DNA from: Candidatus Pacearchaeota archaeon
GTDB taxonomy: Archaea > Nanobdellota > Nanobdellia > Pacearchaeales > GW2011-AR1
DNA: 10,262 bases
NCBI GenBank assembly: GCA_002687255.1
Contig: NYZR01000010.1
Coordinates: 1-10,262, forward strand
Direction: 5' to 3'
This document shows positions 1 through 10,262 of this stretch, one piece after another (the stretch's first letter is position 1; each line of letters begins with the position of its first letter). The translations under genes were made by a program, and so were the position numbers. The notes below the pieces were generated by a model. That model did no database searches and was not told where the DNA came from. It was given only the letters and a program-made list of their open reading frames with translations.

Positions 1-39
1 AAGAGTGATGTGTTGACGGTTGTAGCGACGGCTGCTTAA
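1..39 (+). CDS. possible 3' end of an upstream + strand gene (partial, 12 codons)
   Basis: Frame 1 is open from the window edge to TAA at 37-39 (KSDVLTVVATAA*). Its G/T-ending codons match the other + strand genes, and T-runs follow. It is too short to support further. Confidence 0.2.
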   Translation, partial: KSDVLTVVATAA

Positions 40-71
40 TTTTTTCATCGTGCTTGGAGCGCTCGTTTTTT
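40..71 (+). terminator. two oligo-T runs (T6 at 40-45 and T6 at 66-71), archaeal-style termination signals
   Basis: Archaeal RNAP terminates at oligo-T tracts. Both runs lie between the putative upstream stop (37-39) and the next promoter (122-128). Confidence 0.3.
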
Positions 72-121
72 GATATCGTGTTACAGCGAACACAGGGCGA
101 TGCTACATCTCCTGGGAAAGG

Positions 122-128
122 TATATAA
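122..128 (+). promoter_or_regulatory. TATA box (TATATAA) preceded by purine-rich BRE-like GGAAAGG
   Basis: tatataa at 122-128 lies 29 nt upstream of ATG 151. The same 27-31 nt spacing recurs at five other operon-head genes in this window, which fits leaderless transcripts. Confidence 0.55.
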
Positions 129-150
129 CGGGATCTATCTTGTTGGAATT

Positions 151-1260
151 ATGGGGAGATGTTTGTTTTTTGGTTTGTTTGTATTGGTGTTGTTTGCAGG
201 TTTGGCAAGTGCGGCTTTGGGGATCAGTCCGGCGAAGTTAACTTATGATTTCGTTCCGGGGATGGAGCATGAGATTGAGTATACTGTTATTTCTGATCGG
301 CCAGATCAGGTGGCTTTTGTTTATAGTGAGGGGGCGTTAGGTGAGTTGGTTGGTGTGAGCAGGGAGAAGGTGGTTGGGGAGGAGCAGTTTGTGGCGACTC
401 TGCGATTTCCGCAGACTATGGGGAAGCCTGGAAGGCACAGGATTTATGTGGTGGCTAGTGAACAGAAGGCTGAGGGGATTGAGCCGTTGGGATCTGCCGT
501 GACAGTGCGGGCAGTGATTGAGGTGTTTGTTCCGTATCCTGGACAGTATGTGGATGTTGCTCTGGATGTTTCGAATGGAAATGTTGATGAGACGATTCCT
601 TTGGTTTTGAAGTTGGAGAGTTTGGGGACTGAGAACGTGACTGTTTCTCCGAGAGTTGAGGTGTTTGATCGTGATGGGACGCAGGTCGCTACACGTGGGT
701 TTGATTCGTTCTTGTTGCCTAGTCGGGAGAGGAAGGATGTGCATGCTGAGATGTCGACGATGGGTTGGAAGCCGGGAGAGTTTCTTGCTGTTGGAAAAGC
801 GAGCTTTGCTGGACAGACTAATGATGTGAATAAGACGTTTCTTGTCGGTTCTTTGTTCGTGAATGTGACGAATCATACTGAGAGATTGGTGAGGCAGGAA
901 GGGATTCAGAAGTTTTTGGTAAACGTGGAGAGTCGTTGGAATGGGGCTTTGGATGAGGTGTTTGCCGAGGTGAATCTTTCGAATGAAGAAGGCAGTGTTT
1001 TTGTGAAGACGCCTTCCGTTTCTTTGAGACCCTGGGAATTTGCGGAGCTTGTTGCTTTCGTAGATACTGATGAATTGGATGGGGTGTATCAGAGCGAAAT
1101 TGTGGTGAGGTATGCTGGTGTGAGCACGAGAGTGTTTGGTTTGTTGGAAGTTGGATCTGCAGAGCAGGTTTGGATGTGGGTTCTTGTTCTTGTTGTGGTT
1201 GCTTTGTTCTTGTGGAAGCGTTCGGTTTCGGAGCATGGGAAGCAAGATGAAAAGCGATAG
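151..1260 (+). CDS. secreted, C-terminally membrane-anchored surface protein with multiple Ig/CARDB-like beta-sandwich domains (hypothetical)
   Basis: ORF 70..1260 trimmed to ATG 151, which has the TATA at -29. The N-terminus MGRCLFFGLFVLVLFAGLASA|AL looks like a Sec signal peptide. About 330 aa of beta-rich sequence follow, enough for about 3 beta-sandwich domains. The C-terminal TM VWMWVLVLVVVALFLW is followed by a basic tail, KRSVSEHGKQDEKR. N-glycosylation sequons are present (NVT x2, NKT, NHT, NLS). The stop is TAG. The family cannot be named without an HMM search. Confidence 0.85.
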   Translation: MGRCLFFGLFVLVLFAGLASAALGISPAKLTYDFVPGMEHEIEYTVISDRPDQVAFVYSEGALGELVGVSREKVVGEEQFVATLRFPQTMGKPGRHRIYVVASEQKAEGIEPLGSAVTVRAVIEVFVPYPGQYVDVALDVSNGNVDETIPLVLKLESLGTENVTVSPRVEVFDRDGTQVATRGFDSFLLPSRERKDVHAEMSTMGWKPGEFLAVGKASFAGQTNDVNKTFLVGSLFVNVTNHTERLVRQEGIQKFLVNVESRWNGALDEVFAEVNLSNEEGSVFVKTPSVSLRPWEFAELVAFVDTDELDGVYQSEIVVRYAGVSTRVFGLLEVGSAEQVWMWVLVLVVVALFLWKRSVSEHGKQDEKR

Positions 1261-1666
1261 AGTTTTGTTGCTGGCGGTAGCTGTTTTGGTTTTTGCTGTT
1301 TTGGTTTTTGCTGTTTCTTTGTCTGATTTTTTCGGCTGGGTCGCTGTTGATACAGAAAGGGTTTATGCTAGTGTTAATGTCTCTGATCGTGTGGGTTTTA
1401 ATGTGAATGGCAGCGCTTTGACTTTTGGGAGTATTCTTCCAGGAGGATCTTCTTCGAGATCTGTTATTTTTCAGAATACTTATTCTTTTCCTGTTGAATT
1501 GAGGATTTCTGTGGAAGGAGATATTGCTGGGCTTGTTCAGGTTGGGGATGGGTGGGAGATTCCTGTTGGTGGAGGGTTGGAGATTCCCTTCTCTGTTTAT
1601 GCTGGGCCTGGTGTTCGACAGGGTTTTTCTGACGGATTTGTGGTGTTTCGGATTTTGAGACAATGA
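1235..1666 (+). CDS. small N-terminally anchored single beta-sandwich (PapD/ASH/DUF1573-like pattern) surface protein (hypothetical)
   Basis: ORF 1136..1666 trimmed to ATG 1235; ATG 1247 is an alternative (MKSDRVLLL...). It overlaps the upstream stop (1258-1260) by 14-26 nt, which suggests translational coupling. The TM/signal anchor is LLLAVAVLVFAVLVFAV. About 110 aa follow with an LTFGSILPGGSSSRSVIFQN...PVELRISVEG pattern typical of Ig-like folds. The stop is TGA. Confidence 0.75.
   Translation: MGSKMKSDRVLLLAVAVLVFAVLVFAVSLSDFFGWVAVDTERVYASVNVSDRVGFNVNGSALTFGSILPGGSSSRSVIFQNTYSFPVELRISVEGDIAGLVQVGDGWEIPVGGGLEIPFSVYAGPGVRQGFSDGFVVFRILRQ
1280..1316 (+). repeat. 15-bp perfect tandem duplication (gctgttttggttttt x2 plus 7-nt partial third copy) inside the TM-coding segment
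   Basis: Copies lie at 1280-1294 and 1295-1309, with a partial copy at 1310-1316. The duplication is in frame and encodes AVLVF-AVLVF-AV. Confidence 0.9.
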
Positions 1667-1790
1667 GATTTGAGCTTGCGCAACCTCCTTGCTTTAGCTC
1701 GTGTGCAAGCAAGCACAAATCTCGAGCGTGAACTACCCGGGGGGCGGAGGACGCCCCAGGCTTTAGCCCGGGGTGGTTCACACAATGAGG
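1660..1790. ncRNA. candidate structured RNA or structured intergenic element (class unknown, strand undetermined)
   Basis: A 190-bp gap lies between CDSs. The segment is locally GC-rich and C-containing within an otherwise G+T-rich strand. Nested complementarity: stem 1674-1682/1702-1710 (9 bp, one GU), stem 1728-1738/1771-1781 (11 bp, one GU), enclosed hairpin 1741-1746/1752-1757 (GGGGCG/CGCCCC, loop GAGGA), and a mini-hairpin 1759-1761/1766-1768. The motif GCTTTAGC(T/C)CG occurs twice (1691-1701, 1760-1770). ACAATGAG flanks the element on both sides (1660-1667, 1782-1789). Only short, implausible ORFs cross it on either strand. Confidence 0.4.
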
Positions 1791-1827
1791 TTCTTGGTCT
1801 TGGTGAGATGCTTTTGCGAAGCCAAAG

Positions 1828-1835
1828 ATATTTAA
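1828..1835 (+). promoter_or_regulatory. TATA box (ATATTTAA) with upstream purine-rich CCAAAG
   Basis: It lies 30 nt upstream of ATG 1858, the same geometry as the other operon heads. Confidence 0.5.
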
Positions 1836-1857
1836 GAGTGATCTTCTTGGTGTTGAG

Positions 1858-3303
1858 ATGTTGAAGAGGGGGATGAGGAATGGTTTTCGTGTGGTATTGT
1901 TTTTCGTAATTTTTTTGTCGGTGTTTATGTTGTTGGGTAACGTGTTGTTGTATGCTTCGTATCAGCAGTTAGTTGGTGTTCATGGAAGAGCGACGGAAGG
2001 GAGTATTGGTTTTACTGTTGTTGATAGCACCAGTCCTAATGTGACAATTGTTTTTCCTGAAGCTGTTCAGTATACTTCTAGCACTGTGGATATCAATCTT
2101 AGCTTACATGAGTCTGGCTATTGTGAATATTCTCTTGATGGTGGGGTGACGAATAATACTCTGACGGCAAGAGATGGAAATACTAGTTATACTGGAGATA
2201 CAGGTAGCATAGATGATGCGTTGTATACGTTTCGGGCATATTGTAATGATACTTCTGGGAATCGGAATGATACCGAGTTTCTTGCCTTTTCTGTTTCTAC
2301 TGGCACTTCTAGCGACGCCGCTGCTGGCGGGGGCGGCGGAGGGGGTGGTGGAGGCGGTGGAAGTAGTCCTGCGAAGGAAACTACTTGGGTGGTTGATGTT
2401 GCTCGGTTGAAGGCTTCTGCGAATTTGGGCGAGACTAAGAAAAAGTATTTCCAGATCACAAATAATGGGGTGACTGCCTTGGTTTTCACGCTTCGTCATA
2501 ATGTGGATTCCTATCTTTCTTTTTCCGACGATTCTTTGGAGATTGATCCGAATACTTCAAAGAAGGTGACTGCGACCTTTAAGGCACCTGAGAGAGGAAA
2601 ACCTGATGTCTATACAGGGGAGATTACTGTTTCTACGAAGGGTTCTAAGAAGAAGATCCCAGTTATTTTTGAGGTTAGCTCAGGGAAGGCGCTTATTGAT
2701 ATGAGTGTTTATATTCCTCCTGTGTCTCAGAAATTAGGGGTCGGAGAGGATTTGACATTTGATGTTGAGCTTGATCCTGCTGAGGAAGGCGAACGTGAGG
2801 TGACCCTTTTGTATATGGTAAAGGACTTTTCTGATGTCGTTCATCTTCAGTATGAAGAGGTTGTGATGTTGGATAAGGCGATGGCACACCGGGTTTCTTT
2901 GGATGCAAGTGATCTTCTCGATGGGGAGTATATTCTGGTTGTGGCCGCTACTGATAGTCATGGCACAAGTGTGGATTCCCAGGTGTTTACTGTTGATCTT
3001 GGTGTTGCTCTTTCTGCTTCTTTTGGCATGGATCATTTTTCTTTGTTGTGGTTTGCGTTGGTTGCTCTTATTGCTGTTGCTCTGGGATGGTTCTTGTGGA
3101 TACATCATAGGGGTCATGGGAGGGGTGGTCGGTTTAGGAGGAGGCGCTCTTCAGGGTTTGCGGCGTCTCTAGGTCTTGGTGAGTTACAAGGGAAGTTGAT
3201 GGCTCTAGAGGAAGCGAAAGCTGGAGGGTTCGTGAAGGATTCATCTTATAGGAAAGGGAAGCGATCTCTTTCGTCTAAAATGAAGAAGAGGTTGGGGCGG
3301 TGA
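1858..3303 (+). CDS. bitopic modular surface protein: N-terminal anchor, Cys-containing glycosylated Ig-like domain, Gly12 linker, two Ig-like domains, TM, basic SHOCT-like cytoplasmic tail (hypothetical)
   Basis: 481-aa ORF. The N-terminal TM is FRVVLFFVIFLSVFMLLGNVLLYA. The domain SPNVTIVFPEAVQYTSSTVDINLSLHESGYCEYSLDGG...YTFRAYCNDTSGN resembles the 'TPPxITIxSP...YSLDGG...NDTAGN' Ig-like module common in archaeal adhesin-like proteins, and it carries 6 NxS/T sequons. The G12 linker is at 2326-2361. Two further beta-sandwich-like segments follow. The second TM is FSLLWFALVALIAVALGWFLWI, followed by HHRGHGRGGRFRRRR and LQGKLMALEEAKAGGFVKDSSYRKGKRSL (SHOCT-like L..L..a..G.i....Y...K pattern). 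The stop is TGA. Confidence 0.85.
   Translation: MLKRGMRNGFRVVLFFVIFLSVFMLLGNVLLYASYQQLVGVHGRATEGSIGFTVVDSTSPNVTIVFPEAVQYTSSTVDINLSLHESGYCEYSLDGGVTNNTLTARDGNTSYTGDTGSIDDALYTFRAYCNDTSGNRNDTEFLAFSVSTGTSSDAAAGGGGGGGGGGGGSSPAKETTWVVDVARLKASANLGETKKKYFQITNNGVTALVFTLRHNVDSYLSFSDDSLEIDPNTSKKVTATFKAPERGKPDVYTGEITVSTKGSKKKIPVIFEVSSGKALIDMSVYIPPVSQKLGVGEDLTFDVELDPAEEGEREVTLLYMVKDFSDVVHLQYEEVVMLDKAMAHRVSLDASDLLDGEYILVVAATDSHGTSVDSQVFTVDLGVALSASFGMDHFSLLWFALVALIAVALGWFLWIHHRGHGRGGRFRRRRSSGFAASLGLGELQGKLMALEEAKAGGFVKDSSYRKGKRSLSSKMKKRLGR
2326..2361 (+). repeat. imperfect GGN x12 tract encoding a Gly12 linker
   Basis: ggc ggg ggc ggc gga ggg ggt ggt gga ggc ggt gga. It is in frame within the 1858..3303 CDS, flanked by SSDAAA and SSPAKE. 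Confidence 0.95.
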
Positions 3304-3313
3304 AATACTTGTC

Positions 3314-3318
3314 TTTTT
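3314..3318 (+). terminator. oligo-T (T5) 11 nt after the TGA stop of the 1858..3303 gene
   Basis: tgaaatacttgtcTTTTTcc. Archaeal terminators are simple T-runs. The tract is short, so the call is weak. Confidence 0.3.
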
Positions 3319-3337
3319 CCAAAAAATGCCTTCGTGG

Positions 3338-3509
3338 CACGCCTCTGTTTTGCTCTGTTTGTGGATGTGCATCATGGCGCTTCGTGAGCCCATTTTTTGT
3401 TGCGTCTTTGGATCCGCCACCCCTTTTTCCCCACAGGTTCGCTGTGGCGCATACATCCACTGCTCTTGGTTACTACAGTGCTCTCTCCCCACGCCCTTCT
3501 GTTTTGCTC
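3338..3509 (+). repeat. imperfect direct repeat CACGCC(CT)TCTGTTTTGCTC (3338-3355 and 3490-3509) bracketing a roughly 135-bp non-coding segment
   Basis: The 12-nt core tctgttttgctc is identical at 3344-3355 and 3498-3509. Both copies are preceded by cacgcc, and the second has a 2-nt insertion. Between them, an 8-bp perfect long-range stem pairs 3361-3368 (gtggatgt) with 3453-3460 (acatccac), and a hairpin forms at 3431-3436/3442-3447 (CCACAG gttcg CTGTGG). Confidence 0.5.
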
Positions 3510-3518
3510 GCCACAATG

Positions 3519-3526
3519 TTTATAAA
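3519..3526 (+). promoter_or_regulatory. TATA box (TTTATAAA)
   Basis: This is the best TATA match in the 3304-3570 spacer. It lies 52 nt upstream of the GTG 3571 start, so this gene would carry a short 5' UTR, unlike the leaderless genes. Alternatively it drives something else. Confidence 0.4.
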
Positions 3527-3570
3527 GAACTTTTCGTTGGGTAGGATAAGCACAACATGGGGTTGCGAGC

Positions 3571-4098
3571 GTGGCAAGTAGTGCTGGCTCACGACGGTTG
3601 GTTGCCTGGTTCAAGAAGAGTGTTCGGGAAGGGTATCCGATTAACAGGTGTGTGGAGGTCTTGCTGGACAATGGCTATGATCCTGTGATGGTGAGGGAGG
3701 CTGTAGAGCTTTATCACGGAGTGAGACCCAGGAAGGAGAAGGCTGAGAAAAAGAAAACAGGGAAATCAAAAAAAATGCCGGCGAAAAAATCTACGGGGAA
3801 GAAGGGTTCTTCTATGTCTGGGACTTCTGCATTGTCTGGAGCCATTCAAGATCTTGAGAGTGAGTTGATGAAGCTAGGGAAGAAGAAGCATGAAATTGAG
3901 GATGCTGTAGCTTCGGTCTCTGCTGAGGTGGCGTATTCACAGGCTCGGGAGAGAGAGTTCCAGCAGAAGATTTCTGCGTTGATTGCTGAGGAAGGGAGTT
4001 TGAAGAATCGTGAGAAGAATTTGCAGGCTCGGTTGGATAGAGTTGGGGATAAGATGGCGAAGGTTGCGAAGATTCGTGCTGAGATGGGTGATGTTTAG
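3571..4098 (+). CDS. hypothetical protein: small N-terminal helical domain, Lys-rich linker, C-terminal coiled coil
   Basis: 175-aa ORF with a GTG start; the start is uncertain. The N-terminal LVAWFKKSVREGYPINRCVEVLLDNGYDPVMVREAVELY matches the '...GYs...I...L...Gw....I..A' helical module seen at the N-termini of many small archaeal proteins. The linker is RPRKEKAEKKKTGKSKKMPAKKSTGKKGSS. A heptad-like E/K/L/A-rich region runs from about residue 95 to 175. The stop is TAG. Confidence 0.7.
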   Translation: MASSAGSRRLVAWFKKSVREGYPINRCVEVLLDNGYDPVMVREAVELYHGVRPRKEKAEKKKTGKSKKMPAKKSTGKKGSSMSGTSALSGAIQDLESELMKLGKKKHEIEDAVASVSAEVAYSQAREREFQQKISALIAEEGSLKNREKNLQARLDRVGDKMAKVAKIRAEMGDV

Positions 4099-4137
4099 TA
4101 TAGAAATGTTTAAGTAGGGTTTCTTGGTGAGGTGTGT

Positions 4138-4452
4138 ATGTTTGGACTGATTCAAGAAAGATATCAGAGTCTTTCTGAGAAGTATACAGCTCTTGATCAT
4201 CAAAGAAGTTCTCAGAGGGTGACTGTTGGTGGGAAGGAGCCACTTACTCTTTCTTATGATCGTTTGAATGGATTTCTCTTCGGTGAGAATGATGTTCCTG
4301 CGTCTGATGATCGAATTGCTCAGGTGAGATTGTATGGCGATGAGCATGGGTTTTTCCCCGAAGTTGTTGATGAAGGGGGTGTTGATAGAACTTCATTAGC
4401 ACTGCAGCAGGTTTTGCGAGTGGTTCAGTTTCACAGGGATTTACCGTCTTAG
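4138..4452 (+). CDS. hypothetical small protein (104 aa)
   Basis: ORF 4132..4452 trimmed to ATG 4138. A Shine-Dalgarno-like GGTGAGGTG at 4126-4134 is complementary to the archaeal 16S 3' end; its GGTGA core lies 7 nt upstream of the ATG. Codon usage is G/T-ending like the other + genes. The segment LTLSYDRLNGFLF...DDRIAQVRLYGDEHGF faintly resembles DUF2283-type small beta proteins; this is unverified. The stop is TAG. Confidence 0.6.
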   Translation: MFGLIQERYQSLSEKYTALDHQRSSQRVTVGGKEPLTLSYDRLNGFLFGENDVPASDDRIAQVRLYGDEHGFFPEVVDEGGVDRTSLALQQVLRVVQFHRDLPS

Positions 4453-4459
4453 CTTCTAT

Positions 4460-4678
4460 TTATTCTTGGCAGCCTCTGTTTATCAATTCGGTTCGTGCTG
4501 CTGATGCTTCTAGGCCTGAGGGGAGTGAATGGTCTGTTAGGTGGACAAGGGTTCTCGCTAATAGATTGAGTTGTTGTGCGGCTTCGTATTTTTGGATGGT
4601 GGCTCGGAGCTCTTTTGGAGATCCTCTTCGTGCTTGTGCTTCACGTTGCTGTCCTTCTTGGTATTGTTTGAGAAACAT
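4460..4678 (-). CDS. possible small helical protein (72 aa), doubtful
   Basis: The ATG at 4678 starts 1 nt after the prf1 TAA (TAACATG). The ORF exactly fills the 227-bp gap between the convergent genes, and the stop is TAA at 4460-4462. Against it: the minus strand is stop-codon-poor because of the composition skew, so ORFs of this size arise by chance. There is no SD, and the Q/E/A/R-rich sequence has no recognisable motif. Confidence 0.3.
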   Translation of the reverse strand: MFLKQYQEGQQREAQARRGSPKELRATIQKYEAAQQLNLLARTLVHLTDHSLPSGLEASAARTELINRGCQE

Positions 4679-4679
4679 G

Positions 4680-5786
4680 TTATTCAATCGGAAATCTCAA
4701 CAAGGCTCCGATGCCTGTTTTTGTGAGGTTGATGAACTGCTGGCCGTCTTGGTGTTCGTCCGAGATTAAAACTACGGAGGCTCCGATGTTTTCTGCCATT
4801 TTGGAGAGTTCACTTGTTTTTGCTTTGCTGAGCTTTTTGTCTAAGAAGAGTTTGTCGACGGCGCCCCGTTCTAGGGCGACCTTGACTTTTTCCTCTCCGT
4901 AAGGTGCCATGTTCTTGTGTTTTCCAAGTGTGTCGAAAAACTGTTCTAGGATCTTTTTCTCTTTGATGAGTTCTTGTTCGGCGATGTCTTCTTGGGATTC
5001 TTCGACTAGGAGTTCTAGTCCGTGTTCGTCCACATAGCCAATGTCCTTGAGGGCTATGACTTTTTCTTTGAGCTTGGTTACGAGCTGCCCTTCTTCTAGA
5101 AATTCTTCTTTCGTCGGAATCGGCCCACCGATAAGGATCCCTTTTAGTTTGTCTAGATCGAAGAAGTGATCCTTCATGGATTCTGCTACTCTTCTGAAGA
5201 AATCTTTTGCGAGGCCTTCTGTTATTCTATGGAATCTTTGGCTGGACTGGCCGCCTGCACGAGTTTTTCCTGGAACTCCTGAAGTGAGCGATTGGAGCAT
5301 CTTGATATCCTTGCCTTCAAGTAGTCCGATGCTTGCTTCTTGTCGGTCTATGGCTAGGAGTCCGAAGACTTCTTCCACTTCGAGCATGGCCTTCAGAGGT
5401 TCTAATAGAAATGTTTGATCGCAACGATACATTCTGACCTTGAGAGCTTTCGGTGGTTCGATGGCCCAGATCTCAATATTTTGTTGGCCTTCTTTTTCTG
5501 AAGTGTTGCCTGCATAAATGGCTAGTCCGTTTTCTGGGGTTTTCTTGTAGGTCTTGAGTTCTCTGATTATTGTGTCCAATCCATCTGTGACTGCCGAACG
5601 GGTTTGTTTGGATTTGATGTTCGTTGCTGTCGATCTTTCACCTTCTAATTGTTTTTGAACGAGGTTGATGTTCTGTCCCGTTGGTATGAGGACGGAGACG
5701 AGTTGGGTGTGGCGGCCTTTGATGGCATCTAGGGTTTCAATGAGTTCTTCAAGTTCTCTTGCTTGTTGGGGGGTGAGGTCTGACAT
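4680..5786 (-). CDS. prf1: peptide chain release factor aRF1 (archaeal/eukaryotic class I release factor)
   Basis: The 368-aa ORF carries the diagnostic motifs: TATNIKSKQTR (NIKS stop-codon recognition loop), MYRCDQTF (YxCxxxF) and TRAGGQSSQRF (GGQ peptidyl-tRNA hydrolysis motif). This family is restricted to archaea and eukaryotes. The stop is TAA. Confidence 0.95.
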   Translation of the reverse strand: MSDLTPQQARELEELIETLDAIKGRHTQLVSVLIPTGQNINLVQKQLEGERSTATNIKSKQTRSAVTDGLDTIIRELKTYKKTPENGLAIYAGNTSEKEGQQNIEIWAIEPPKALKVRMYRCDQTFLLEPLKAMLEVEEVFGLLAIDRQEASIGLLEGKDIKMLQSLTSGVPGKTRAGGQSSQRFHRITEGLAKDFFRRVAESMKDHFFDLDKLKGILIGGPIPTKEEFLEEGQLVTKLKEKVIALKDIGYVDEHGLELLVEESQEDIAEQELIKEKKILEQFFDTLGKHKNMAPYGEEKVKVALERGAVDKLFLDKKLSKAKTSELSKMAENIGASVVLISDEHQDGQQFINLTKTGIGALLRFPIE

Positions 5787-5808
5787 GGTAGTTAGATGAG
5801 TGTGTGGT

Positions 5809-5817
5809 TTAAAAAAT
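5809..5817 (-). promoter_or_regulatory. TATA box (TTTTTTAAA on the minus strand) for prf1; the T6 run may also terminate valS
   Basis: It lies 24-31 nt upstream of ATG 5786 and 7 nt downstream of the valS stop (5824-5826). Confidence 0.45.
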
Positions 5818-5823
5818 GTGGTG

Positions 5824-8199
5824 TCACACGAGATCTACTTTAAGTGCACCTTCCTTGATTTCTTCTGCAGAGGTGACAGCTTTGAGATCTTCGAGAAGGG
5901 GTTTGAGGAGGGTTTGTGTTTCTTCCGGTAGTGTTAGATAGATTTCTGCCTTCATAGATACTTTTGCTTCTGACTTTGTTTGTCTGGCTTTGGCGATGAT
6001 CTCGAGGAGAGTGTTCCAGGCTTCCTGGTCTTTCTTAGAGGTTTTTAGTTTGAGCGGTGTGGGCCAGCTGCTTGTGTGAATGGAAGTTTCCTTTTCCTGC
6101 TTCTTGAAATGAGTTTGGTAGATTTCTTCGGTGATGAACGGTGTTATCGGTGCCATCATCTTCGTTATTGCTAAGAGGGCTTGATAGAGAGTGTAGGAAG
6201 CAGATGCTTTTTCTGTTGCTGTGCCGTTGTAGACCCTGTATTTGACTAGTTCTAGGTAGTTATCAGCGAAGGTGTGCCAGAAGAATGCGTCGACCAACAT
6301 TTTTGCTTTTGATAGTTCGTATGATTCGAATGCGTCTGTTGCTGATTTTGTTAGGTTGTTGAGTTGAGTGAGGAATAACCTGTCCGTTTCGTGTAGCGTT
6401 GGTTGCGTCTTTTTTGGTTTTATGTTCATGAATACAAAATTAGCTGCGTTTATTATCTTGGTTACGAATTTCTTTCCGGCTATGAGTTCTTTCTCTGGGA
6501 ATGGTAATGCGTCTCCTGCTTTTACAGAGGCTGAGAGGTATCTCAAGGCATCCGCTCCATAGTCTTCTATTACGTCCTGAGGAGATACCCCGTTGCCTCT
6601 TGATTTTGACATCTTGTGTCCGTCTTTTCCGAGTATCCATCCGTTGATATAGAGTTCATTCCACGGGTTTCTATTTTCGTGTAGTTGTGATTTCACTATG
6701 GTGTTGAAATCCCAGAACGTGATGATATCTTGGCCGTTTCTTCTTATGCTCATGGGTTGATTGGTGATTTTTTTGTATGCTGGTGTGTCTTTTAGCAGAT
6801 CTTTGGTGATGGTTGGCGTGAGTGAAGAGGTCGCCCAGGTGTTCATCACATCTTTTTCTGGTATAAATTCTGTTGAGTTACATTTTGGGCATTTCTTTAT
6901 TGGTGGTTTATCTTCTATGGGGTCGATGGGTAGTTGCTTTTCATCTGCGAGTATCGTCTCGTCACAACTTTTGCAATACCAGACGGGGAATGGAATCCCG
7001 AATGCTATCTGTCTTGAAATGCACCAGTCCCATTTTAGACCTTTGACCCAGTTTTCGTATCTGTTTCTCATATGGTCTGGGTGCCATTTGATTTCCCTTC
7101 CCCACTTTAGTAATTTTTCTTTTAGATCGAGATACTTGATGCACCATTGCTTCTTTTCTATGAATTCAATTTCTGTGCTACATCTTTCACACACATTCAC
7201 TGGGTGGGTGATCTTCTTCTGTGATTTCAGCGCTCCAGCTTTTTTCAGGTCTTGGATTACTTGTTCTCTCGCTTCTTTTATCTTCAGTCCTTTGTATTTT
7301 CCTGCGAGTCCTGTCATCGTTCCGTCGGGAGCTATGGCCATTTTGATGGGGAGTTTGTGTTCTCTTTGCCATTCCATATCTGTTTGGTCTCCGAAGGTGC
7401 AGCACATTACCACTCCGGTTCCTTTCTCAGGGTCTGCCTTGGGGTCTGGTAGGATGGGAACTTCTATGTCGAATAAAGGGGTTTTCGCCTTCTTCCCTTT
7501 CAGTGGTTTGAATCTTTTGTCATCAGGATGGTAGAAGATGGCTACAATTGCTGGAAGGAGTTCTGGTCTTGTTGTTGAGATTATAAGGTCTTTGTTGTCT
7601 ACCTTGAACACGATATCGCTGAATTGGCTGTGGATGTCTTTATCGACTAGTTCTACTTGTGCGATTGTCGTTCGGCAGGTTGGGCACCAGAGGGCCGGGG
7701 CGTCGATACGGTATTCTCTTCCTAATTTGTAGAGATCTATGAAACTTTGCTGTGAGACCCTTCTCGATCGTTCATCTATGGTTGAGTAGAAGATGTCCCA
7801 GTCGGCGGAGATTCCTAGTCTTTTTGAGTCTGCTAGGAATTCTGGTATGTATTCTTCTTCTATTGTTTTCAGGCAGAGTTCTATGAATTCTTCTCTGGAC
7901 ATGGATTTTGAGTCGACGTTTTTCTCTTTTTCAACTAGTCTTAGGGTTGGCAGGCCGTTGTTGTCTGTTCCGAATGGATTGAGAACTTCGAAGCCATTCA
8001 TTCTTTTGAATCTGGCTATGAAGTCTTGCTGGGCGTCTCCGAAGGCGTGTCCCATGTGGAGTTTTCCTGAGATGGTTGGCGGCGGGGTGTCTAGGGAGTA
8101 GATTTTCTTCTTGGTTTTTGTGTCGAACTTGTAGATCTTTTTGTCTTCCCAGTATTTTTGCCATTTTCTTTCTATTTCTTGGATGTTTGTTTTGGGCAT
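5824..8199 (-). CDS. valS: valine--tRNA ligase (archaeal-type class Ia aminoacyl-tRNA synthetase)
   Basis: 791-aa ORF. TPPPTISGKLHMGHAF is the ValRS-type 'PPP..(S/T)G.LH.GH' HIGH motif, and GHKMSKSRGNGV is KMSKS. The CP1 editing-domain signatures are TTRPELLPAIVAIFYHPDD and GTGVVMCCTFGDQTDMEW. DWCISRQIAFGIPFPVWYC is present, along with four CxxC pairs. The N-terminus IERKWQKYWEDKKIYKF is typical of archaeal ValRS. The class Ia call is near certain. Val specificity rests on motif resemblance rather than IleRS or LeuRS features. Confidence 0.88.
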   Translation of the reverse strand: MPKTNIQEIERKWQKYWEDKKIYKFDTKTKKKIYSLDTPPPTISGKLHMGHAFGDAQQDFIARFKRMNGFEVLNPFGTDNNGLPTLRLVEKEKNVDSKSMSREEFIELCLKTIEEEYIPEFLADSKRLGISADWDIFYSTIDERSRRVSQQSFIDLYKLGREYRIDAPALWCPTCRTTIAQVELVDKDIHSQFSDIVFKVDNKDLIISTTRPELLPAIVAIFYHPDDKRFKPLKGKKAKTPLFDIEVPILPDPKADPEKGTGVVMCCTFGDQTDMEWQREHKLPIKMAIAPDGTMTGLAGKYKGLKIKEAREQVIQDLKKAGALKSQKKITHPVNVCERCSTEIEFIEKKQWCIKYLDLKEKLLKWGREIKWHPDHMRNRYENWVKGLKWDWCISRQIAFGIPFPVWYCKSCDETILADEKQLPIDPIEDKPPIKKCPKCNSTEFIPEKDVMNTWATSSLTPTITKDLLKDTPAYKKITNQPMSIRRNGQDIITFWDFNTIVKSQLHENRNPWNELYINGWILGKDGHKMSKSRGNGVSPQDVIEDYGADALRYLSASVKAGDALPFPEKELIAGKKFVTKIINAANFVFMNIKPKKTQPTLHETDRLFLTQLNNLTKSATDAFESYELSKAKMLVDAFFWHTFADNYLELVKYRVYNGTATEKASASYTLYQALLAITKMMAPITPFITEEIYQTHFKKQEKETSIHTSSWPTPLKLKTSKKDQEAWNTLLEIIAKARQTKSEAKVSMKAEIYLTLPEETQTLLKPLLEDLKAVTSAEEIKEGALKVDLV

Positions 8200-8219
8200 G
8201 CTCTTTTTTAGGGAAGAGG

Positions 8220-8227
8220 GTTTAAAG
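8220..8227 (-). promoter_or_regulatory. TATA box (CTTTAAAC on the minus strand) for valS
   Basis: It lies in the 38-bp spacer between the methyltransferase stop (8238) and the valS ATG (8199), 28 nt from the ATG. Confidence 0.45.
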
Positions 8228-8237
8228 GGTTTTTGGG

Positions 8238-8924
8238 CTATCTCTTTTGAAGGATGAGCCCGTATTCATTGATTATCAGATAACGAGCTTTTTCTAGGAT
8301 CATGGGTTCTGCTGCTTGTTGAAAGTGTTTGCTTGCCGCTTTTAGAATTTCTCTCATTTGGAAGATCTCTGTTTTTTCATGAAAGTGTTTGAGATCTTGC
8401 ATTAAAATGGGGTGGTGTGCTTCTACCCCCTCACGTGTTGATTCTGGAGTGTATTCAAAATCAAGTATAATGAGGTTCCCTTTTGGTTTAATTCTTGTTA
8501 CTAGATCTTTGAGAACGGCTTCTAATTCTTCAGGATCTCTTCTTTTGTCGAGGGCTTCGTGGAGCGAGAAGCTGCAGAAGATAGTGTCTAGGTTTTGGAA
8601 TTGAGGCGGGAGGTCTTGGAGTGGTTTTTGGTAGACGTGGTAGGTGTTTGTGTTTCCTTGTTGTTTGAGCTTTTTTGCTAGGGATTTTGATTGTCGGAAG
8701 AGCGCTGTGTTAGGTTCTGCTCCGAGGAGCGTGCAGTGGTTTCTCTTTTCTGCGATGGCCTTGACATCTATTCCTGGGCCTGGGCCCACCACCCCGATGG
8801 TGGTTTGGTCTTGGAGACCGTTTTTTATGGCCCAAGTGAAGAGGTTTTCTTTTGTTTGGTAGTGGAGGTGCTCTTCGTAGACTTGGGCTATTTTTGTGTA
8901 GTTTTGATCGTTTCTTTGTGTCAT
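8238..8924 (-). CDS. class I SAM-dependent methyltransferase (substrate unknown)
   Basis: ORF 8238..9122 trimmed to ATG 8924 (MTQRNDQNY...). A strong SD, AAGGAGG (+ strand cctcctt, 8931-8937), lies 6 nt upstream. Rossmann MTase motifs are present: motif I IGVVGPGPGID, post-I LLGAEPN, motif II DTIFCSFSLHE and motif III IKPKGNLIILDF. The start overlaps the upstream stop as ATGA. Confidence 0.85.
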   Translation of the reverse strand: MTQRNDQNYTKIAQVYEEHLHYQTKENLFTWAIKNGLQDQTTIGVVGPGPGIDVKAIAEKRNHCTLLGAEPNTALFRQSKSLAKKLKQQGNTNTYHVYQKPLQDLPPQFQNLDTIFCSFSLHEALDKRRDPEELEAVLKDLVTRIKPKGNLIILDFEYTPESTREGVEAHHPILMQDLKHFHEKTEIFQMREILKAASKHFQQAAEPMILEKARYLIINEYGLILQKR

Positions 8925-9145
8925 TTTATACCTCCTTTGGCGAATTTGATTGCCCACATGCAGAAGATAAAGGTGTTGACTATGACGAATGGAAGATCTG
9001 TTATGAGGATTGCGTGGAGGATGAGGAACGCTGTTCCTAAGAGGTCTAGAGGGATGAATCGATTTGGCTTTTTGGTGTTGAGAAAGAGGTATGCTATCAT
9101 AACGAGTGCAAGTCCTATCCACCCCATTGCGTCTTGGATTGTCAT
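8921..9145 (-). CDS. 74-aa three-TM membrane miniprotein (resembles bacterial CBU_0592-type / SemiSWEET-sized 3-helix proteins)
   Basis: Three hydrophobic helices: WIGLALVMIAYLFL, FIPLDLLGTAFLILHAILI and LPFVIVNTFIFCMWAIKFA. The ATG at 9145 lies 1 nt after the upstream TAG, and its TGA overlaps the downstream ATG (ATGA). Family resemblance is from memory of the pattern W.G......AY.....................N..G......................N..W only. Confidence 0.75.
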   Translation of the reverse strand: MTIQDAMGWIGLALVMIAYLFLNTKKPNRFIPLDLLGTAFLILHAILITDLPFVIVNTFIFCMWAIKFAKGGIK

Positions 9146-9146
9146 G

Positions 9147-9164
9147 CTAGAATTTTAATTCTAG
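9147..9164 (-). other. perfect inverted repeat CTAGAATT-AA-AATTCTAG formed by the last five codons plus the stop of the beta-barrel gene
   Basis: On the minus strand, CTA GAA TTA AAA TTC TAG (LELKF*). As RNA it can form a 7-bp stem with a UAAA loop that ends 2 nt before the next start codon (9145). Confidence 0.6.
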
Positions 9165-9800
9165 GCCTATGATGGGGGTGATTCCTTCTCGGATTTTCTT
9201 GAAGCTTGGTCTGGTGAAACTTTTGCTTCTGACAAAAGCAGAAACTCTGTCAGTGAGTTTGAGCTTGACTTTTGGTTCGAGCATCAGGACTTTTGGATCT
9301 ATGTTGTAGTCTGCAGTGAGATTTGCTCTGAGTCTTGGGGTGAGTTGCTGTGAGGTGAAGAATGTTGCTTGTTGTCCGTGCTCTCCTGATGTCTCTAAGG
9401 GAAGGTATTTGAGATAGGTGAAGTTGTTTTTTCCTAAATTTGGTGTGTATGTTATTCCGAGTCTAATGGTGTCTTCTAAGAAGGTGGCTCCGTTGTATTC
9501 TGCTGTTAGTGCAAGAGGAACTTGTTTTGTTGGTTGGATGTTGATCCTTCCTTCTGCGTAGACGCTTTGCATGTTTGTCGGTTCTTCTTTACTGGCGTTG
9601 AGGTCGATGAAGCCATATGTGCTTATTTTATCGTTGAGTTTGCTGCCTCCTTCAATTCTTGCTGTGGAATGTTCTTTTTTTATGTTGTAGCCTGGCTGGA
9701 ATGTGAACCAGTTGTCGCTTGCTTGGGCTTTTCCTGGCAAGAACGGCAGGGCGAGGAAAGCTAGCTTTGCTAGTATTCCAGGTTTTCTTTTTTTGTTCAT
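9147..9800 (-). CDS. secreted beta-barrel-like protein resembling small bacterial outer-membrane channels (Tsx/OmpK- or KdgM-like pattern); hypothetical
   Basis: 217 aa. The signal peptide is MNKKRKPGILAKLAFLALPFLPGKAQA|SD (basic n-region, hydrophobic core, AxA site). About 12 segments of alternating hydrophobic/polar residues occur at beta-hairpin spacing: WFTFQPGYNI, STARIEGGSKL, ISTYGFIDLNA, SVYAEGRINIQ, LALTAEYNGA, DTIRLGITYTP, FTYLKYLPLE, QQATFFTSQQL, LRANLTADYNI, LMLEPKVKLKL, VSAFVRSKSFT and ITPIIGLELKF. The terminal residue is Phe, as in the OMP beta-signal. An SD-like GGGAG lies 8 nt upstream, and the start overlaps the upstream stop (ATGA). That it is a CDS is well supported; the fold and family are inferred. 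Confidence 0.85.
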   Translation of the reverse strand: MNKKRKPGILAKLAFLALPFLPGKAQASDNWFTFQPGYNIKKEHSTARIEGGSKLNDKISTYGFIDLNASKEEPTNMQSVYAEGRINIQPTKQVPLALTAEYNGATFLEDTIRLGITYTPNLGKNNFTYLKYLPLETSGEHGQQATFFTSQQLTPRLRANLTADYNIDPKVLMLEPKVKLKLTDRVSAFVRSKSFTRPSFKKIREGITPIIGLELKF

Positions 9801-10048
9801 CTTCTTAGCTCCCTTGAGACTTTTGAGATCAGATCTTCGTTTCTCGTGATCTTATGGGCTCTGAAGTGGGTTCTCCGATGTTTATCTTCCTCTAGTTTTC
9901 TGTAGACTGTTGAGACAATTTGTCTTTCTCCTAATCTCATCTCCTGAGCCTCTTTTTCTTTAACGAAGATGTCTTTTCTGATTTCTCGATATTTCCTCTC
10001 TGGATTTCCTGCATCTGTTTCTCTATGGTCTATTGCTACGATTGTCAT
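9797..10048 (-). CDS. small highly charged protein (83 aa), possibly ribbon-helix-helix-like DNA binder; hypothetical
   Basis: ORF 9797..10180 trimmed to ATG 10048 (MTIVAIDHRETDAG...), which lies 21-28 nt downstream of TATA 10069-10076. The segment KDIFVKEKEAQEMRLGERQIVSTVYRKLEE could be strand-helix-turn-helix as in CopG/Arc-type proteins; this is a weak call. The tail is basic. The TGA overlaps the next ATG (ATGA). Confidence 0.6.
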   Translation of the reverse strand: MTIVAIDHRETDAGNPERKYREIRKDIFVKEKEAQEMRLGERQIVSTVYRKLEEDKHRRTHFRAHKITRNEDLISKVSRELRR

Positions 10049-10068
10049 ACTCGCTTTCGTTTTATTGG

Positions 10069-10076
10069 TTATATAA
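10069..10076 (-). promoter_or_regulatory. TATA box (TTATATAA, nearly palindromic) for the minus-strand operon
   Basis: It lies 28 nt from ATG 10048, the same spacing as the other leaderless heads. Confidence 0.55.
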
Positions 10077-10084
10077 GAAAATAG

Positions 10085-10103
10085 TGTCCTCTTCAGGAGG
10101 ACA
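10085..10103. promoter_or_regulatory. inverted repeat TGTCCTC-ttcag-GAGGACA, candidate operator
   Basis: It has 7-bp perfect arms (10085-10091 and 10097-10103) with a 5-bp spacer. It sits between the two divergent TATA boxes, 9 bp from each (10069-10076 and 10113-10120). Confidence 0.5.
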
Positions 10104-10112
10104 ATAGAAAGG

Positions 10113-10120
10113 TTTACATA
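10113..10120 (+). promoter_or_regulatory. TATA box (TTTACATA) preceded by AGAAAGG (BRE-like, same as at 115-121)
   Basis: It lies 29 nt upstream of ATG 10142, matching the leaderless spacing elsewhere in the window. Confidence 0.45.
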
Positions 10121-10141
10121 ATGCGGTTTGTTGAAAAAGGG

Positions 10142-10262
10142 ATGGATGAGAAAGTGTTTGAGGATGTGGGGCTGACGCATAATGAGGTGTTGGTTTGGAA
10201 GGCTCTTTTGAAACTTGGATCTTCGACAGCTGGGCCATTGACTCGGGAAAGTGGATTACATC
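10142..10262 (+). CDS. TrmB/MarR-like winged-helix transcriptional regulator, N-terminal fragment (runs off window)
   Basis: This gene is not in the supplied ORF track because it is open-ended. The frame is open from ATG 10121 (MRFVEKG...) and ATG 10142 (MDEKVFEDVGLTHNEVLVWKALLKLGSSTAGPLTRESGLH) to the window end. The pattern GL(T/S).nE..V..aLl.lG..ta..l...sG is the TrmB-family N-terminal wHTH signature. TATA spacing favours the 10142 start. Confidence 0.65.
   Translation, partial: MDEKVFEDVGLTHNEVLVWKALLKLGSSTAGPLTRESGLH

What the first reader, a model, noticed from the sequence alone, without database searches (positions are those of the whole stretch)
1..10262. Extreme G+T (keto) excess on one DNA strand regardless of gene orientation
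I hand-counted eight 60-nt lines spread across the window. G+T on the + strand was 43/60 (181-240), 37/60 (2941-3000), 38/60 (3361-3420), 35/60 (3781-3840), 34/60 (5401-5460), 42/60 (6001-6060), 35/60 (8401-8460) and 44/60 (9301-9360). That is 308/480, about 64%. The excess is similar under + strand genes and under - strand genes, so it does not follow transcription or coding direction. As a result, + genes use G/T-ending codons: TTT, TTG, GTT/GTG, GGT/GGG, AAG, GAG (for example ATG GGG AGA TGT TTG TTT TTT GGT TTG...). The - genes use A/C-ending codons: TTC, CTA/CTC, GGA, AAA, GAA, ATA, AGA (for example valS ATG CCC AAA ACA AAC ATC CAA GAA ATA GAA AGA AAA...). All five + strand stops contain G (TAG or TGA) and none is TAA. 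The skew also explains the very long antisense shadow ORFs in the track (302 aa, 281 aa, 257 aa): the A+C-rich strand lacks T/G for stop codons, and the G+T-rich strand lacks A. A strand asymmetry this strong is unusual for a cellular archaeon. It points to a strong replication-associated or ssDNA-exposure mutational bias (C-to-T and A-to-G deamination on the displaced strand), with essential genes (valS, prf1) on the A+C-rich coding side.
Basis: seen in the sequence. Interest (0 to 1): 0.7.

Follow-up and report, generated by a model that had tools for sequence, protein, structure and literature searches.

The report
Extreme one-strand G+T bias, DPANN archaeon
One DNA strand of this marine nano-sized (DPANN) archaeon is about 64% G+T overall and about 78% G+T at freely evolving codon sites, whichever way the genes point; a strand-specific mutation bias of this strength is familiar from animal mitochondria, whereas a recent survey found archaea to have very little of it.

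Summary

The bias does not come from amino-acid content. At 4-fold degenerate sites, the + strand is 79% G+T under + genes and 77% under - genes. All 19 genes across 14.4 kb (window plus an overlapping contig) fall between 0.67 and 0.88, across four changes of gene orientation. Synonymous codon choice flips with the strand, which excludes transcription and translational selection. At least five independent assemblies give 99.98-100% identical sequence, which excludes an artefact.

The organism is a marine (Tara Oceans) DPANN archaeon, named 'Candidatus Pacearchaeota archaeon' in NCBI.

Purines and pyrimidines stay near parity (47:53). That points to excess C->T and A->G transitions on one strand, about 13-fold combined, in every neighbour context.

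Two of the closest relatives show nearly the same skew. About half of 62 related loci show a weaker orientation-independent skew.

A link to replication is the best explanation, but it is untested. No origin, terminus or sign switch could be reached.

I found no published description of this. A 2026 survey concludes that archaea have greatly reduced strand-specific mutational skew.

The parts
1..10262 (+). G+T-rich (keto-rich) strand of the whole window. The same skew continues for 4.1 kb more on overlapping contig L001.
   Evidence: G+T is 63.8% overall. At 4-fold sites across the 14.4 kb: T822, G647, A237, C167.
70..1260 (+). g1, a predicted secreted or membrane-anchored protein with no family match. 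The start may be the TTG at 70 or the ATG at 151.
   Evidence: called as 396 aa in L090. 4-fold G+T 0.85 (counted from 196).
1247..1666 (+). g2, a 139-aa protein with an N-terminal hydrophobic segment. It carries a 48-bp in-frame duplication polymorphism at 1534-1581.
   Evidence: 4-fold G+T 0.81.
1858..3303 (+). g3, a 481-aa surface-type protein with an Ig-like domain, a poly-Gly run and a C-terminal hydrophobic segment.
   Evidence: PF22544, 2.5e-6. 4-fold G+T 0.76.
3300..3581 (+). 93-aa called gene with no family match.
3571..4098 (+). g4, a 175-aa coiled-coil protein. It is purine-rich, which explains the locally positive AT skew.
   Evidence: 4-fold G+T 0.75.
4138..4452 (+). 104-aa called gene with no family match.
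4680..5786 (-). aRF1, the archaeal peptide chain release factor 1.
   Evidence: eRF1 domains 1-3, down to 2.5e-32. 4-fold G+T on its coding strand 0.225, i.e. 0.775 on the + strand.
5824..8199 (-). valS, valine--tRNA ligase. Identical to NCBI MAE49482.1, 'Candidatus Pacearchaeota archaeon'.
   Evidence: 4-fold G+T on its coding strand 0.234.
8238..8924 (-). Class I SAM-dependent methyltransferase-like protein, 228 aa.
   Evidence: 4-fold G+T on the + strand 0.72.
8921..9127 (-). 68-aa called gene.
   Evidence: 0.78.
9147..9800 (-). 217-aa protein with an N-terminal signal-like segment and no family match.
   Evidence: 0.84.
9797..10048 (-). 83-aa called gene. The longest ORF runs 9797-10180.
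   Evidence: 0.80.
10142..10262 (+). Start of a TrmB-like regulator gene that runs off the window (to 10882 in extended coordinates).
   Evidence: 0.80.
337..1245 (-). 302-aa antisense shadow ORF, not a gene. Its codons are aligned with those of g1.
   Evidence: 0.008 stops per codon in that frame.
818..1663 (-). 281-aa antisense shadow ORF, not a gene. Its codons are aligned with g2 where the two overlap.
   Evidence: 0.000 stops per codon in the codon-aligned antisense frame of g2.
6761..7534 (+). 257-aa antisense shadow ORF inside valS, not a gene. Part of it was called as a gene in one assembly.
   Evidence: antisense frame 1 of valS has 0.024 stops per codon.

Best explanation
The window is an ordinary chromosomal stretch of a marine DPANN archaeon of the Pacearchaeota/Woesearchaeota group. 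Its two DNA strands have evolved under very different mutation pressures.

On the + strand, C->T and A->G transitions are fixed far more often than their complements (G->A and T->C). The combined excess is about 13-fold, roughly 3.6-fold each if shared equally. This has driven unconstrained sites to about 45% T, 34% G, 13% A and 9% C. It has dragged codon usage in opposite directions on the two strands, and it has shifted amino-acid content.

Most likely the asymmetry is tied to replication. The + strand would be the one left single-stranded or unprotected for longer at the fork, with the whole 14.4 kb inside one replichore. In bacterial terms this is the leading-strand sequence, which serves as the lagging-strand template. 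Cytosine and adenine on that strand would deaminate to uracil and hypoxanthine and be copied before repair.

Shown here: the asymmetry is strand-specific, independent of gene orientation, of transition type, free of sequence context, and heritable within the clade. Inferred: the link to replication, the deamination chemistry, and which strand is leading.
For: 1. **Independent of gene orientation at neutral sites.** 4-fold G+T on the + strand is 0.79 under + genes and 0.77 under - genes. All 19 genes over 14.4 kb fall between 0.67 and 0.88 across four orientation switches. They include family-confirmed genes on both strands: valS and aRF1 on -, endonuclease III, NAC and a PepF-like peptidase on +.
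2. **Graded by constraint.** Keto fraction by codon position is pos3 0.81 > pos1 0.63 > pos2 0.51 in + genes, and intergenic DNA is 0.62. This is what a mutational cause predicts.
3. **Transition signature.** At 1873 4-fold sites T/C = 4.9 and G/A = 2.7, while purine:pyrimidine is 47:53.
4. **No motif dependence.** T/(C+T) is 0.73-0.88 and G/(A+G) is 0.64-0.88 in every 5' and 3' neighbour context.
5. **Real sequence.** At least five independent assemblies agree at 99.98-100% identity.
6. **Heritable in the lineage.** Sister lineage L096 has 4-fold GC skew -0.53/-0.66 and AT skew +0.49/+0.40 for its two gene orientations. L097 has -0.49/-0.66 and +0.26/+0.26. Of 62 related loci, 30 have an orientation-independent skew above 0.2. 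The orientation-dependent component has a median of only 0.05, and G goes with T (r = -0.41 between the GC and AT components).
7. **Matches known patterns.** This is the compositional pattern of bacterial leading strands and of the vertebrate mitochondrial H strand. Both are attributed to deamination of C and A in single-stranded DNA (PMC3269012; PMC7143001).
Against: - No origin, terminus or sign switch was seen. The organism's indexed contigs are all 10 kb or shorter, so the link to replication is untested.
- Equilibrium composition cannot separate a damage asymmetry from a polymerase-error asymmetry. It also cannot separate a C->T asymmetry from an A->G asymmetry, because only the ratios a/d and c/b are identifiable.
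- As I recall, archaea make short Okazaki fragments, which should limit single-strand exposure. A survey of reference genomes concluded that archaea show little strand-specific mutational skew (PMC12999951).
- Some relatives show AT-only skew (L065, L041) or GC-only skew (L070). AT-only skew with G roughly equal to C cannot come from transitions alone, so more than one process acts in the clade.
- No gene-strand bias towards the keto-rich strand is evident (rough tally).
- The population is almost clonal, so no polarised mutation spectrum could be obtained.
Confidence: 0.6

Rival explanations
1. The same strand-specific mutation pressure operates, but the genome is replicated in one direction only or by a strand-displacement-like mode. 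One strand of the entire chromosome would then be G+T-rich and the skew would never change sign. This mode is documented for vertebrate mitochondrial DNA and was proposed for some CPR bacteria.
For: The magnitude is far above ordinary bidirectional replicons: typical bacterial GC skew is about 2.5% (PMC8941118), against 25% here. Vertebrate mitochondrial DNA shows the same G+T-rich versus A+C-rich strand pattern (PMC3269012). The skew keeps one sign over 14.4 kb and over 18-22 kb in the sister loci. No clean sign switch turned up in about 1.3 Mb of related loci. Microgenomates UBA1400 genomes show a monotonic cumulative GC skew over the whole chromosome, for which unidirectional replication was proposed (PMC7143001).
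Against: With only two switch points per roughly 1 Mb genome, 14 kb of constant sign is also what bidirectional replication predicts. The polarity relative to valS differs between close relatives: valS is on the keto-rich strand in L004, L005, L010 and L014 and on the keto-poor strand in the window, L096 and L097. Both models can accommodate that through inversions. A complete DPANN genome (Forterrea) has the normal peaked pattern (PMC7111523).
Confidence: 0.18
2. The asymmetry reflects which polymerase copies which strand, rather than damage. For example, a family-B polymerase with a pocket that senses uracil and hypoxanthine could copy one template, while a family-D or pocket-less polymerase copies the other. 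Deaminated bases or misincorporations would then be fixed on one strand only.
For: The two transitions involved (C->T and A->G) correspond to the two deaminated bases, uracil and hypoxanthine, that archaeal family-B polymerases are known to sense in the template. That point comes from my own knowledge and was not tested here. The lack of sequence context fits a polymerase-level effect as well as it fits spontaneous damage. The variety of skew types among relatives could reflect different polymerase sets.
Against: No polymerase gene of this organism was available. This is inference only and cannot be distinguished from the damage model using composition.
Confidence: 0.15
3. The skew is caused by transcription: the non-transcribed strand is exposed and accumulates C->T and A->G.
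For: Transcription-associated deamination gives a G+T-rich coding strand, as seen in the + genes.
Against: The - genes have the opposite composition on their coding strand (4-fold G+T 0.23). The skew ignores four orientation switches. The orientation-dependent component at 4-fold sites is 0.05 for GC skew and 0.01 for AT skew.
Confidence: 0.01
4. The skew is caused by selection on codon usage or amino-acid content.
For: Amino-acid content differs between the two gene sets: Val 11.5% vs 4.0%, Gly 9.5% vs 4.9%, Lys 5.3% vs 10.7%.
Against: Preferred synonymous codons are opposite on the two strands although the genes share one tRNA pool. The skew is largest at 4-fold sites, smallest at second positions, and present in intergenic DNA. 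The amino-acid shift is therefore a consequence of the skew, as in mitochondria (PMC2779903).
Confidence: 0.02
5. The skew is an artefact (chemical conversion, amplification or mis-assembly), or the DNA belongs to a virus or plasmid that replicates by rolling circle.
For: Bisulfite-like C->T conversion would raise T and lower C on one strand.
Against: The same sequence occurs in at least five independent assemblies. It encodes intact, conserved valS, aRF1, NAC and endonuclease III. A is also depleted and G enriched, which C->T conversion alone cannot produce. There are no PHROG matches. IMG/VR holds only a 34%-identical valS. valS-aRF1 synteny is shared with cellular Woesearchaeota and Pacearchaeota MAGs.
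Confidence: 0.01

Closest known systems
Leading/lagging-strand compositional asymmetry of bacterial chromosomes (Lobry-type GC and TA skew)
   Same: G>C together with T>A on one strand, visible at third codon positions and in non-coding DNA, and independent of gene direction. It is attributed to strand-biased deamination at the fork (PMC3269012; PMC12999951).
   Different: The magnitude. Typical bacterial GC skew is about 2.5%, or 23-25 excess G per 1000 bases. Here it is 25%, or 114 per 1000, and 4-fold-site skews are about 0.55-0.6. The organism is an archaeon with a eukaryote-like replisome. The sign switch at origin and terminus that defines the bacterial pattern was not observed.
H/L strand asymmetry of vertebrate mitochondrial DNA
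   Same: One strand is G+T-rich and the other A+C-rich. Codon usage and amino-acid content follow the strand: the GT-codon amino acids F, V, G, W, C trade off against the CA-codon amino acids K, N, T, P, Q, H (PMC2779903). The proposed chemistry is C and A deamination on the strand left single-stranded (PMC3269012).
   Different: This is a cellular chromosome with genes on both strands, not a 16-kb organelle genome. No gradient with position and no strand-displacement replication has been shown.
Whole-chromosome G/C disparity in CPR bacteria of order UBA1400 (Ch65, Collierbacteria, Beckwithbacteria; PMC7143001)
   Same: An ultra-small, uncultivated, probably symbiotic prokaryote with one strand strongly depleted in one base. 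The disparity does not follow gene distribution and is shared by related lineages.
   Different: In Ch65 only G/C is affected (C 29.8% vs G 15.0%, with A roughly equal to T). Here both G/C and A/T are skewed, and total keto excess is 27.7% of bases against about 15% in Ch65 (my arithmetic). Ch65 is a bacterium. Its skew is known to keep one sign around the whole chromosome, which is unknown here.
Nucleotide skews of archaeal reference genomes (PMC12999951; PMC7111523)
   Same: Archaeal chromosomes analysed with the same codon-position logic.
   Different: Those surveys find weak skews (7-8 excess G per 1000). [quoted passage not shown] DPANN are not mentioned in that text. The window and many Woesearchaeota/Pacearchaeota loci show the opposite: a large orientation-independent component and a negligible orientation-dependent one.

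Membership tests
Replication-associated strand compositional asymmetry (leading vs lagging strand) | Departure from intra-strand parity at neutral sites (4-fold sites, intergenic DNA) that is independent of gene orientation. | tested here: met
   4-fold G+T on the + strand is 0.79 under + genes and 0.77 under - genes. All 19 genes fall in 0.67-0.88. Intergenic DNA is 0.62.
Replication-associated strand compositional asymmetry (leading vs lagging strand) | The skew changes sign at the replication origin and at the terminus. | not testable with these tools
   Only 14.4 kb of this organism could be reached. The 23,128-bp NCBI contig listed was not retrievable. No orc1/cdc6 gene was found in any fetched locus.
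Replication-associated strand compositional asymmetry (leading vs lagging strand) | G excess is coupled to T excess, the keto type expected from C->T and A->G on the exposed strand. | tested here: met
   T/C = 4.9, G/A = 2.7, R:Y = 47:53. Across relatives the GC and AT components correlate at r = -0.41.
Mitochondrial-type asymmetry from strand-displacement replication | One sign of skew over the whole replicon. | not testable with these tools
   No complete or long contig of this lineage is available. The sign is constant over 14.4 kb.
Mitochondrial-type asymmetry from strand-displacement replication | A gradient of skew with the time each site spends single-stranded. | tested here: inconclusive
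   Per-gene 4-fold values show no trend along 14.4 kb. That span is too short relative to a genome of roughly 1 Mb.
Transcription-associated strand asymmetry | The skew follows the coding or non-transcribed strand of each gene. | tested here: not met
   The orientation-dependent component is 0.05 (GC) and 0.01 (AT), against orientation-independent components of 0.56 and -0.57.
Translational selection / codon-usage bias | The same preferred synonymous codons in all genes of the genome. | tested here: not met
   Preferences are reversed between strands for Phe, Lys, Glu, Asp, Asn, Tyr, His, Gln, Ile and every 4-fold family with adequate counts.
CPR UBA1400-type whole-chromosome G/C disparity | Strong G/C disparity with no A/T disparity. 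| tested here: not met
   AT skew is -0.30 overall and -0.57 at 4-fold sites. Relative L070 does resemble the GC-only type.

The most novel reading that the evidence does not exclude
A whole clade of marine and aquatic DPANN archaea (Pacearchaeota/Woesearchaeota) replicates or repairs its chromosome in a way that leaves one strand chronically exposed or unprotected. Possible causes are unidirectional or strand-displacement-like replication, or loss of the archaeal surveillance of deaminated bases. The result would be mitochondrion-grade strand asymmetry in a cellular genome, and a direct exception to the view that archaea lack strand-specific mutation bias.
Probability: 0.25. Interest if true: 0.8.

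Novelty: new variant of a known kind. Interest (0 to 1): 0.62.

Why it matters
- **It challenges a recent generalisation.** Strand asymmetry is the classic footprint of how a genome is replicated and repaired. [quoted passage not shown] That text does not mention DPANN. This window and its relatives show an archaeal lineage where the strand-specific component dominates and is far above the bacterial average.
- **It opens a question to direct test.** A closed genome would show where and how these uncultivated, ultra-small archaea replicate. Gene-content comparison across the clade could show which repair or polymerase features set the strength of the asymmetry.
- **It has practical consequences.**
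  - Codon usage and amino-acid content depend on the strand, which can mislead composition-based binning and phylogeny.
  - Antisense shadow ORFs are long enough that gene callers replaced part of valS with antisense 'genes' in one public assembly.

Tried and rejected
1. **RNA genes.** A tRNA scan and an Rfam scan of the window found nothing.
2. **More of the same genome.** Look-ups of valS, aRF1 and g3 returned only contigs of 10 kb or less. The 23,128-bp contig recorded for the valS cluster is not in the position index.
3. **A second contig of the same organism.** I searched with the MetRS of the closest relative and picked hits with matching amino-acid composition. The three contigs fetched belong to other organisms with moderate skew.
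4. **Mutation spectrum from population variants.** The assemblies are 99.98-100% identical, so there are too few SNPs.
5. **Origin of replication.** An AAA+ gene next to valS in 11 relatives turned out to be the RFC large subunit, not Orc1/Cdc6. A change-point scan of 80 related loci found no clean sign switch.
6. **Virus or plasmid origin.** No PHROG hits and no close IMG/VR relative. Rejected.
7. **Accelerated protein evolution.** The window's valS is as far from an outgroup set (0.373) as its neighbours are (0.35-0.40). No evidence of acceleration.
8. **Motif-specific deaminase or methylation signature.** The asymmetry is present in every neighbour context. Rejected.
9. **One look-up failed.** The P0007 look-up (175-kb contig) failed for lack of a free slot and was not repeated.

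Full report
**1.

The window has A 1987, C 1723, G 2895 and T 3657. That gives G+T 63.85%, GC skew +0.254 and AT skew -0.296. The excess is 6552 keto bases against 5131 expected, about 28 standard deviations from parity (my arithmetic).

The skew is uniform. Every 500-nt block lies between 57.6% and 70.4% G+T. GC skew is positive in 38 of 40 sliding windows and AT skew is negative in 38 of 40. The small local departures track coding direction. Coding strands carry extra purines, so GC skew is higher and AT skew less negative under + genes, and the reverse holds under - genes. The purine fraction is about 0.45-0.60 in 1-4500 and 0.36-0.49 beyond.

**2. What is encoded, and where it comes from**

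The + strand genes occupy 70-4452. They encode secreted or membrane-type proteins, one with an Ig-like domain, and a coiled-coil protein. The - strand genes occupy 4680-10048. They encode aRF1, valS, a methyltransferase-like protein and small proteins without family matches. A + strand TrmB-like gene starts at 10142. No tRNA or Rfam family is present.

The valS protein is identical to NCBI MAE49482.1, 'Candidatus Pacearchaeota archaeon'. The same DNA occurs in at least five independent marine metagenome assemblies, several of them from Tara Oceans samples, at 99.98-100% identity. The sequence is therefore real, and the population is nearly clonal.

Contig L001 overlaps the window and extends it by 4131 bases. 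The extension carries endonuclease III, NAC, a PepF-like peptidase and two small genes. The nearest valS relatives are only 67-69% identical, and those carrying an organism name are labelled Pacearchaeota or Nanoarchaeota. Nothing suggests a virus or plasmid.

**3.

| Site class | + genes (G+T) | - genes, coding strand (G+T) | - genes, on + strand |
|---|---|---|---|
| Third codon positions | 80.7% | 25.0% | 75.0% |
| 4-fold degenerate sites | 79.3% | 23.3% | 76.7% |
| Second codon positions | 0.51 | 0.41 | - |

Intergenic DNA is 61.9% G+T (all).

I split the 4-fold-site skew into two components. The orientation-independent part is +0.56 (GC) and -0.57 (AT). The orientation-dependent part is 0.05 and 0.01.

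Over the extended 14.4 kb there are four changes of gene orientation. All 19 genes have 4-fold G+T on the + strand between 0.67 and 0.88. These include family-confirmed genes on both strands.

Synonymous codon choice is reversed between strands, + genes versus - genes:
- Phe TTT/TTC 59/18 vs 13/61
- Glu GAG/GAA 61/27 vs 18/124
- Asp GAT/GAC 66/5 vs 35/57
- Ile ATT/ATC/ATA 34/5/5 vs 19/67/45
- Leu TTG 70 vs 6, and CTC 5 vs 77

One tRNA pool cannot favour opposite codons, so translational selection is excluded. Transcription-linked asymmetry is excluded because it would flip with gene direction.

**4. Consequences for proteins and for ORF structure**

Proteins on the + strand have Val 11.5%, Gly 9.5% and Lys 5.3%. 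Those on the - strand have Val 4.0%, Gly 4.9% and Lys 10.7%. The two sets differ in protein type, so this comparison is confounded. Within one orthologous family, however, the window's valS ranks 8th of 121 for enrichment of CA-codon amino acids over GT-codon amino acids. The same effect is described for mitochondrial proteins (PMC2779903). valS is not a long branch.

- Base composition alone predicts 0.052 stops per codon on the + strand and 0.048 on the - strand, not fewer than the uniform 0.047 (my arithmetic).
- In 200 mononucleotide shuffles, the longest stop-free run averaged 148 codons and never exceeded 219. The observed ORFs are 302, 281 and 257 aa.
- The cause is the third-position bias. 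In + genes, TTA+CTA+TCA are only 1.5% of codons, so the codon-aligned antisense frame has 0-0.03 stops per codon.
- In the larger - genes (aRF1, valS and the 217-aa gene), a different antisense frame is depleted, at about 0.02 stops per codon.

A practical result: in one public assembly the gene caller truncated valS to 262 aa and called three antisense ORFs in its place.

The stop-codon remark is true for + genes (TAG x4, TGA x2). It does not discriminate, because four of the five - gene stops tabulated also contain G.

**5. What kind of mutational process**

Across 1873 4-fold sites, the + strand has T 822, G 647, A 237 and C 167. Purine:pyrimidine is 47:53 while keto:amino is 78:22. The asymmetry is therefore essentially one of transitions.

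With transitions only, equilibrium gives:
- T/C = rate(C->T on +) / rate(T->C on +) = 4.9
- G/A = rate(A->G on +) / rate(G->A on +) = 2.7

The product is 13.4. It equals the strand asymmetry of C->T multiplied by that of A->G, roughly 3.6-fold each if shared equally. This derivation is mine. Composition cannot apportion the product between the two transitions.

The bias is present in every 5' and 3' neighbour context: T/(C+T) is 0.73-0.88 and G/(A+G) is 0.64-0.88. That argues against a motif-specific deaminase or methylation-dependent deamination. It fits a generic process, such as spontaneous deamination in exposed DNA or a polymerase-level bias.

**6. It is a property of the lineage**

Two of the closest relatives show nearly the same thing, with the same polarity relative to valS:

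| Locus | valS identity | GC content | 4-fold GC skew (+/- genes) | 4-fold AT skew (+/- genes) |
|---|---|---|---|---|
| L096 | 68% | 36% | -0.53 / -0.66 | +0.49 / +0.40 |
| L097 (same Tara sample, 49-kb contig) | 67% | 32% | -0.49 / -0.66 | +0.26 / +0.26 |

Among 62 loci from genomes labelled mostly Woesearchaeota, Pacearchaeota or Nanoarchaeota that had enough genes on both strands:
- 30 have an orientation-independent 4-fold skew above 0.2 in GC or AT.
- The orientation-dependent component has a median of 0.05.
- G excess goes with T excess (r = -0.41 between the GC and AT components).

The window is the most extreme of that set because both components are near 0.56.

Some relatives are AT-only (L065 0.63, L041 0.57) or GC-only (L070 -0.55). 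AT-only skew with G roughly equal to C needs transversions, so more than one process operates in the clade. Other relatives (L004, L005, L010, L014) have moderate skew with valS on the keto-rich strand. The gene's position relative to the asymmetry has therefore changed during evolution.

These relative-locus figures rest on a simple longest-ORF gene call. In the window that call reproduces the validated genes.

**7. Comparison with what is known**

- *Bacterial chromosomes.* G+T-rich versus A+C-rich strands are the classic leading/lagging pattern of bacteria and the H/L pattern of vertebrate mitochondrial DNA. Both are attributed to C and A deamination in single-stranded DNA (PMC3269012). Bacterial skews are typically about 2.5% (PMC8941118), or 23-25 excess G per 1000 bases. 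Archaea average 7-8 (PMC12999951). The window has 114.
[quoted passage not shown] Its text does not mention DPANN. An earlier survey found a bacterial-type peaked skew in only 18 of 224 RefSeq archaea, all Euryarchaeota, plus one DPANN genome (PMC7111523).
- *Closest precedent.* In CPR bacteria of order UBA1400, one strand of the whole chromosome has C 29.8% vs G 15.0% but A roughly equal to T. Unidirectional replication was proposed for them (PMC7143001).
- *Literature search.* Six full-text searches found no description of strong strand asymmetry in DPANN archaea. The library covers open-access papers only.

**8. Verdict**

Its core interpretation is supported: a strand-specific mutational bias unrelated to transcription. 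The specific attribution to replication and single-strand deamination is the most likely mechanism (about 0.6) but is inferred.

I could not reach an origin, a terminus or a sign switch. I also cannot separate bidirectional from unidirectional replication, or a damage asymmetry from a polymerase asymmetry.

I rate it a new variant of a known kind. The phenomenon is textbook. Its strength in an archaeal chromosome, its spread across a DPANN clade, and its conflict with a recent generalisation are not.

Noticed in passing
window 1534-1581 (inside g2, 1247-1666); L084/L087: A 48-bp in-frame tandem duplication polymorphism. Contig TARA_SAMEA2619974 scaffold_12567 carries two copies, adding 16 aa (VQVGDGWEIPVGGGLD). 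g2 is therefore 155 aa there and 139 aa in the window and other assemblies.
   Followed up: yes
window 5824-8199 (valS); L084 172-2449: In one public assembly the gene caller cut valS to its C-terminal 262 aa and called three antisense ORFs (205, 64 and 102 aa) over the rest, although the DNA is 100% identical. The skew-driven shadow ORFs mislead automatic annotation.
   Followed up: partly
L004 9752-11263: The aRF1 of the closest genomic relative is 503 aa and contains an intein (Intein_splicing and Hint domains). The window's aRF1 (368 aa) has none.
   Followed up: no
window 4680-8199; L004, L092, L094, L096, L097: The valS-aRF1 gene pair is conserved across the relatives examined. Downstream of aRF1, ScpB and a family-2 glycosyltransferase follow in L092, L096 and L097 but are absent here. 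The window organism has its unmatched surface-protein genes there instead, in convergent orientation.
   Followed up: no
L037, L046, L050, L056, L058, L064, L067, L070, L075, L078, L083 (upstream of valS): A roughly 400-aa AAA+ gene sits on the opposite strand, immediately upstream of valS in several of these relatives. The six tested match RFC-type clamp-loader lid domains or Rad17, not Orc1/Cdc6. It is absent from the window.
   Followed up: partly
L065, L041 (AT-only) and L070 (GC-only): Some relatives have very strong orientation-independent skew in only one base pair: AT skew about 0.6 with G roughly equal to C, or GC skew -0.55 with weak AT skew. AT-only skew cannot arise from transitions alone, so the clade holds more than one kind of strand-specific mutational bias.
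   Followed up: partly
window vs relatives (whole loci): The window has 45% G+C, whereas its closest relatives have 26-36%. An excess of A->G on one strand would raise G+C, but this link was not tested.
   Followed up: no
window 2350-2400 (g3): g3 contains a run of twelve glycines flanked by Ala and Ser (AAAGGGGGGGGGGGGSS). It is encoded on the G-rich strand and may be a slippage-prone low-complexity tract.
   Followed up: no
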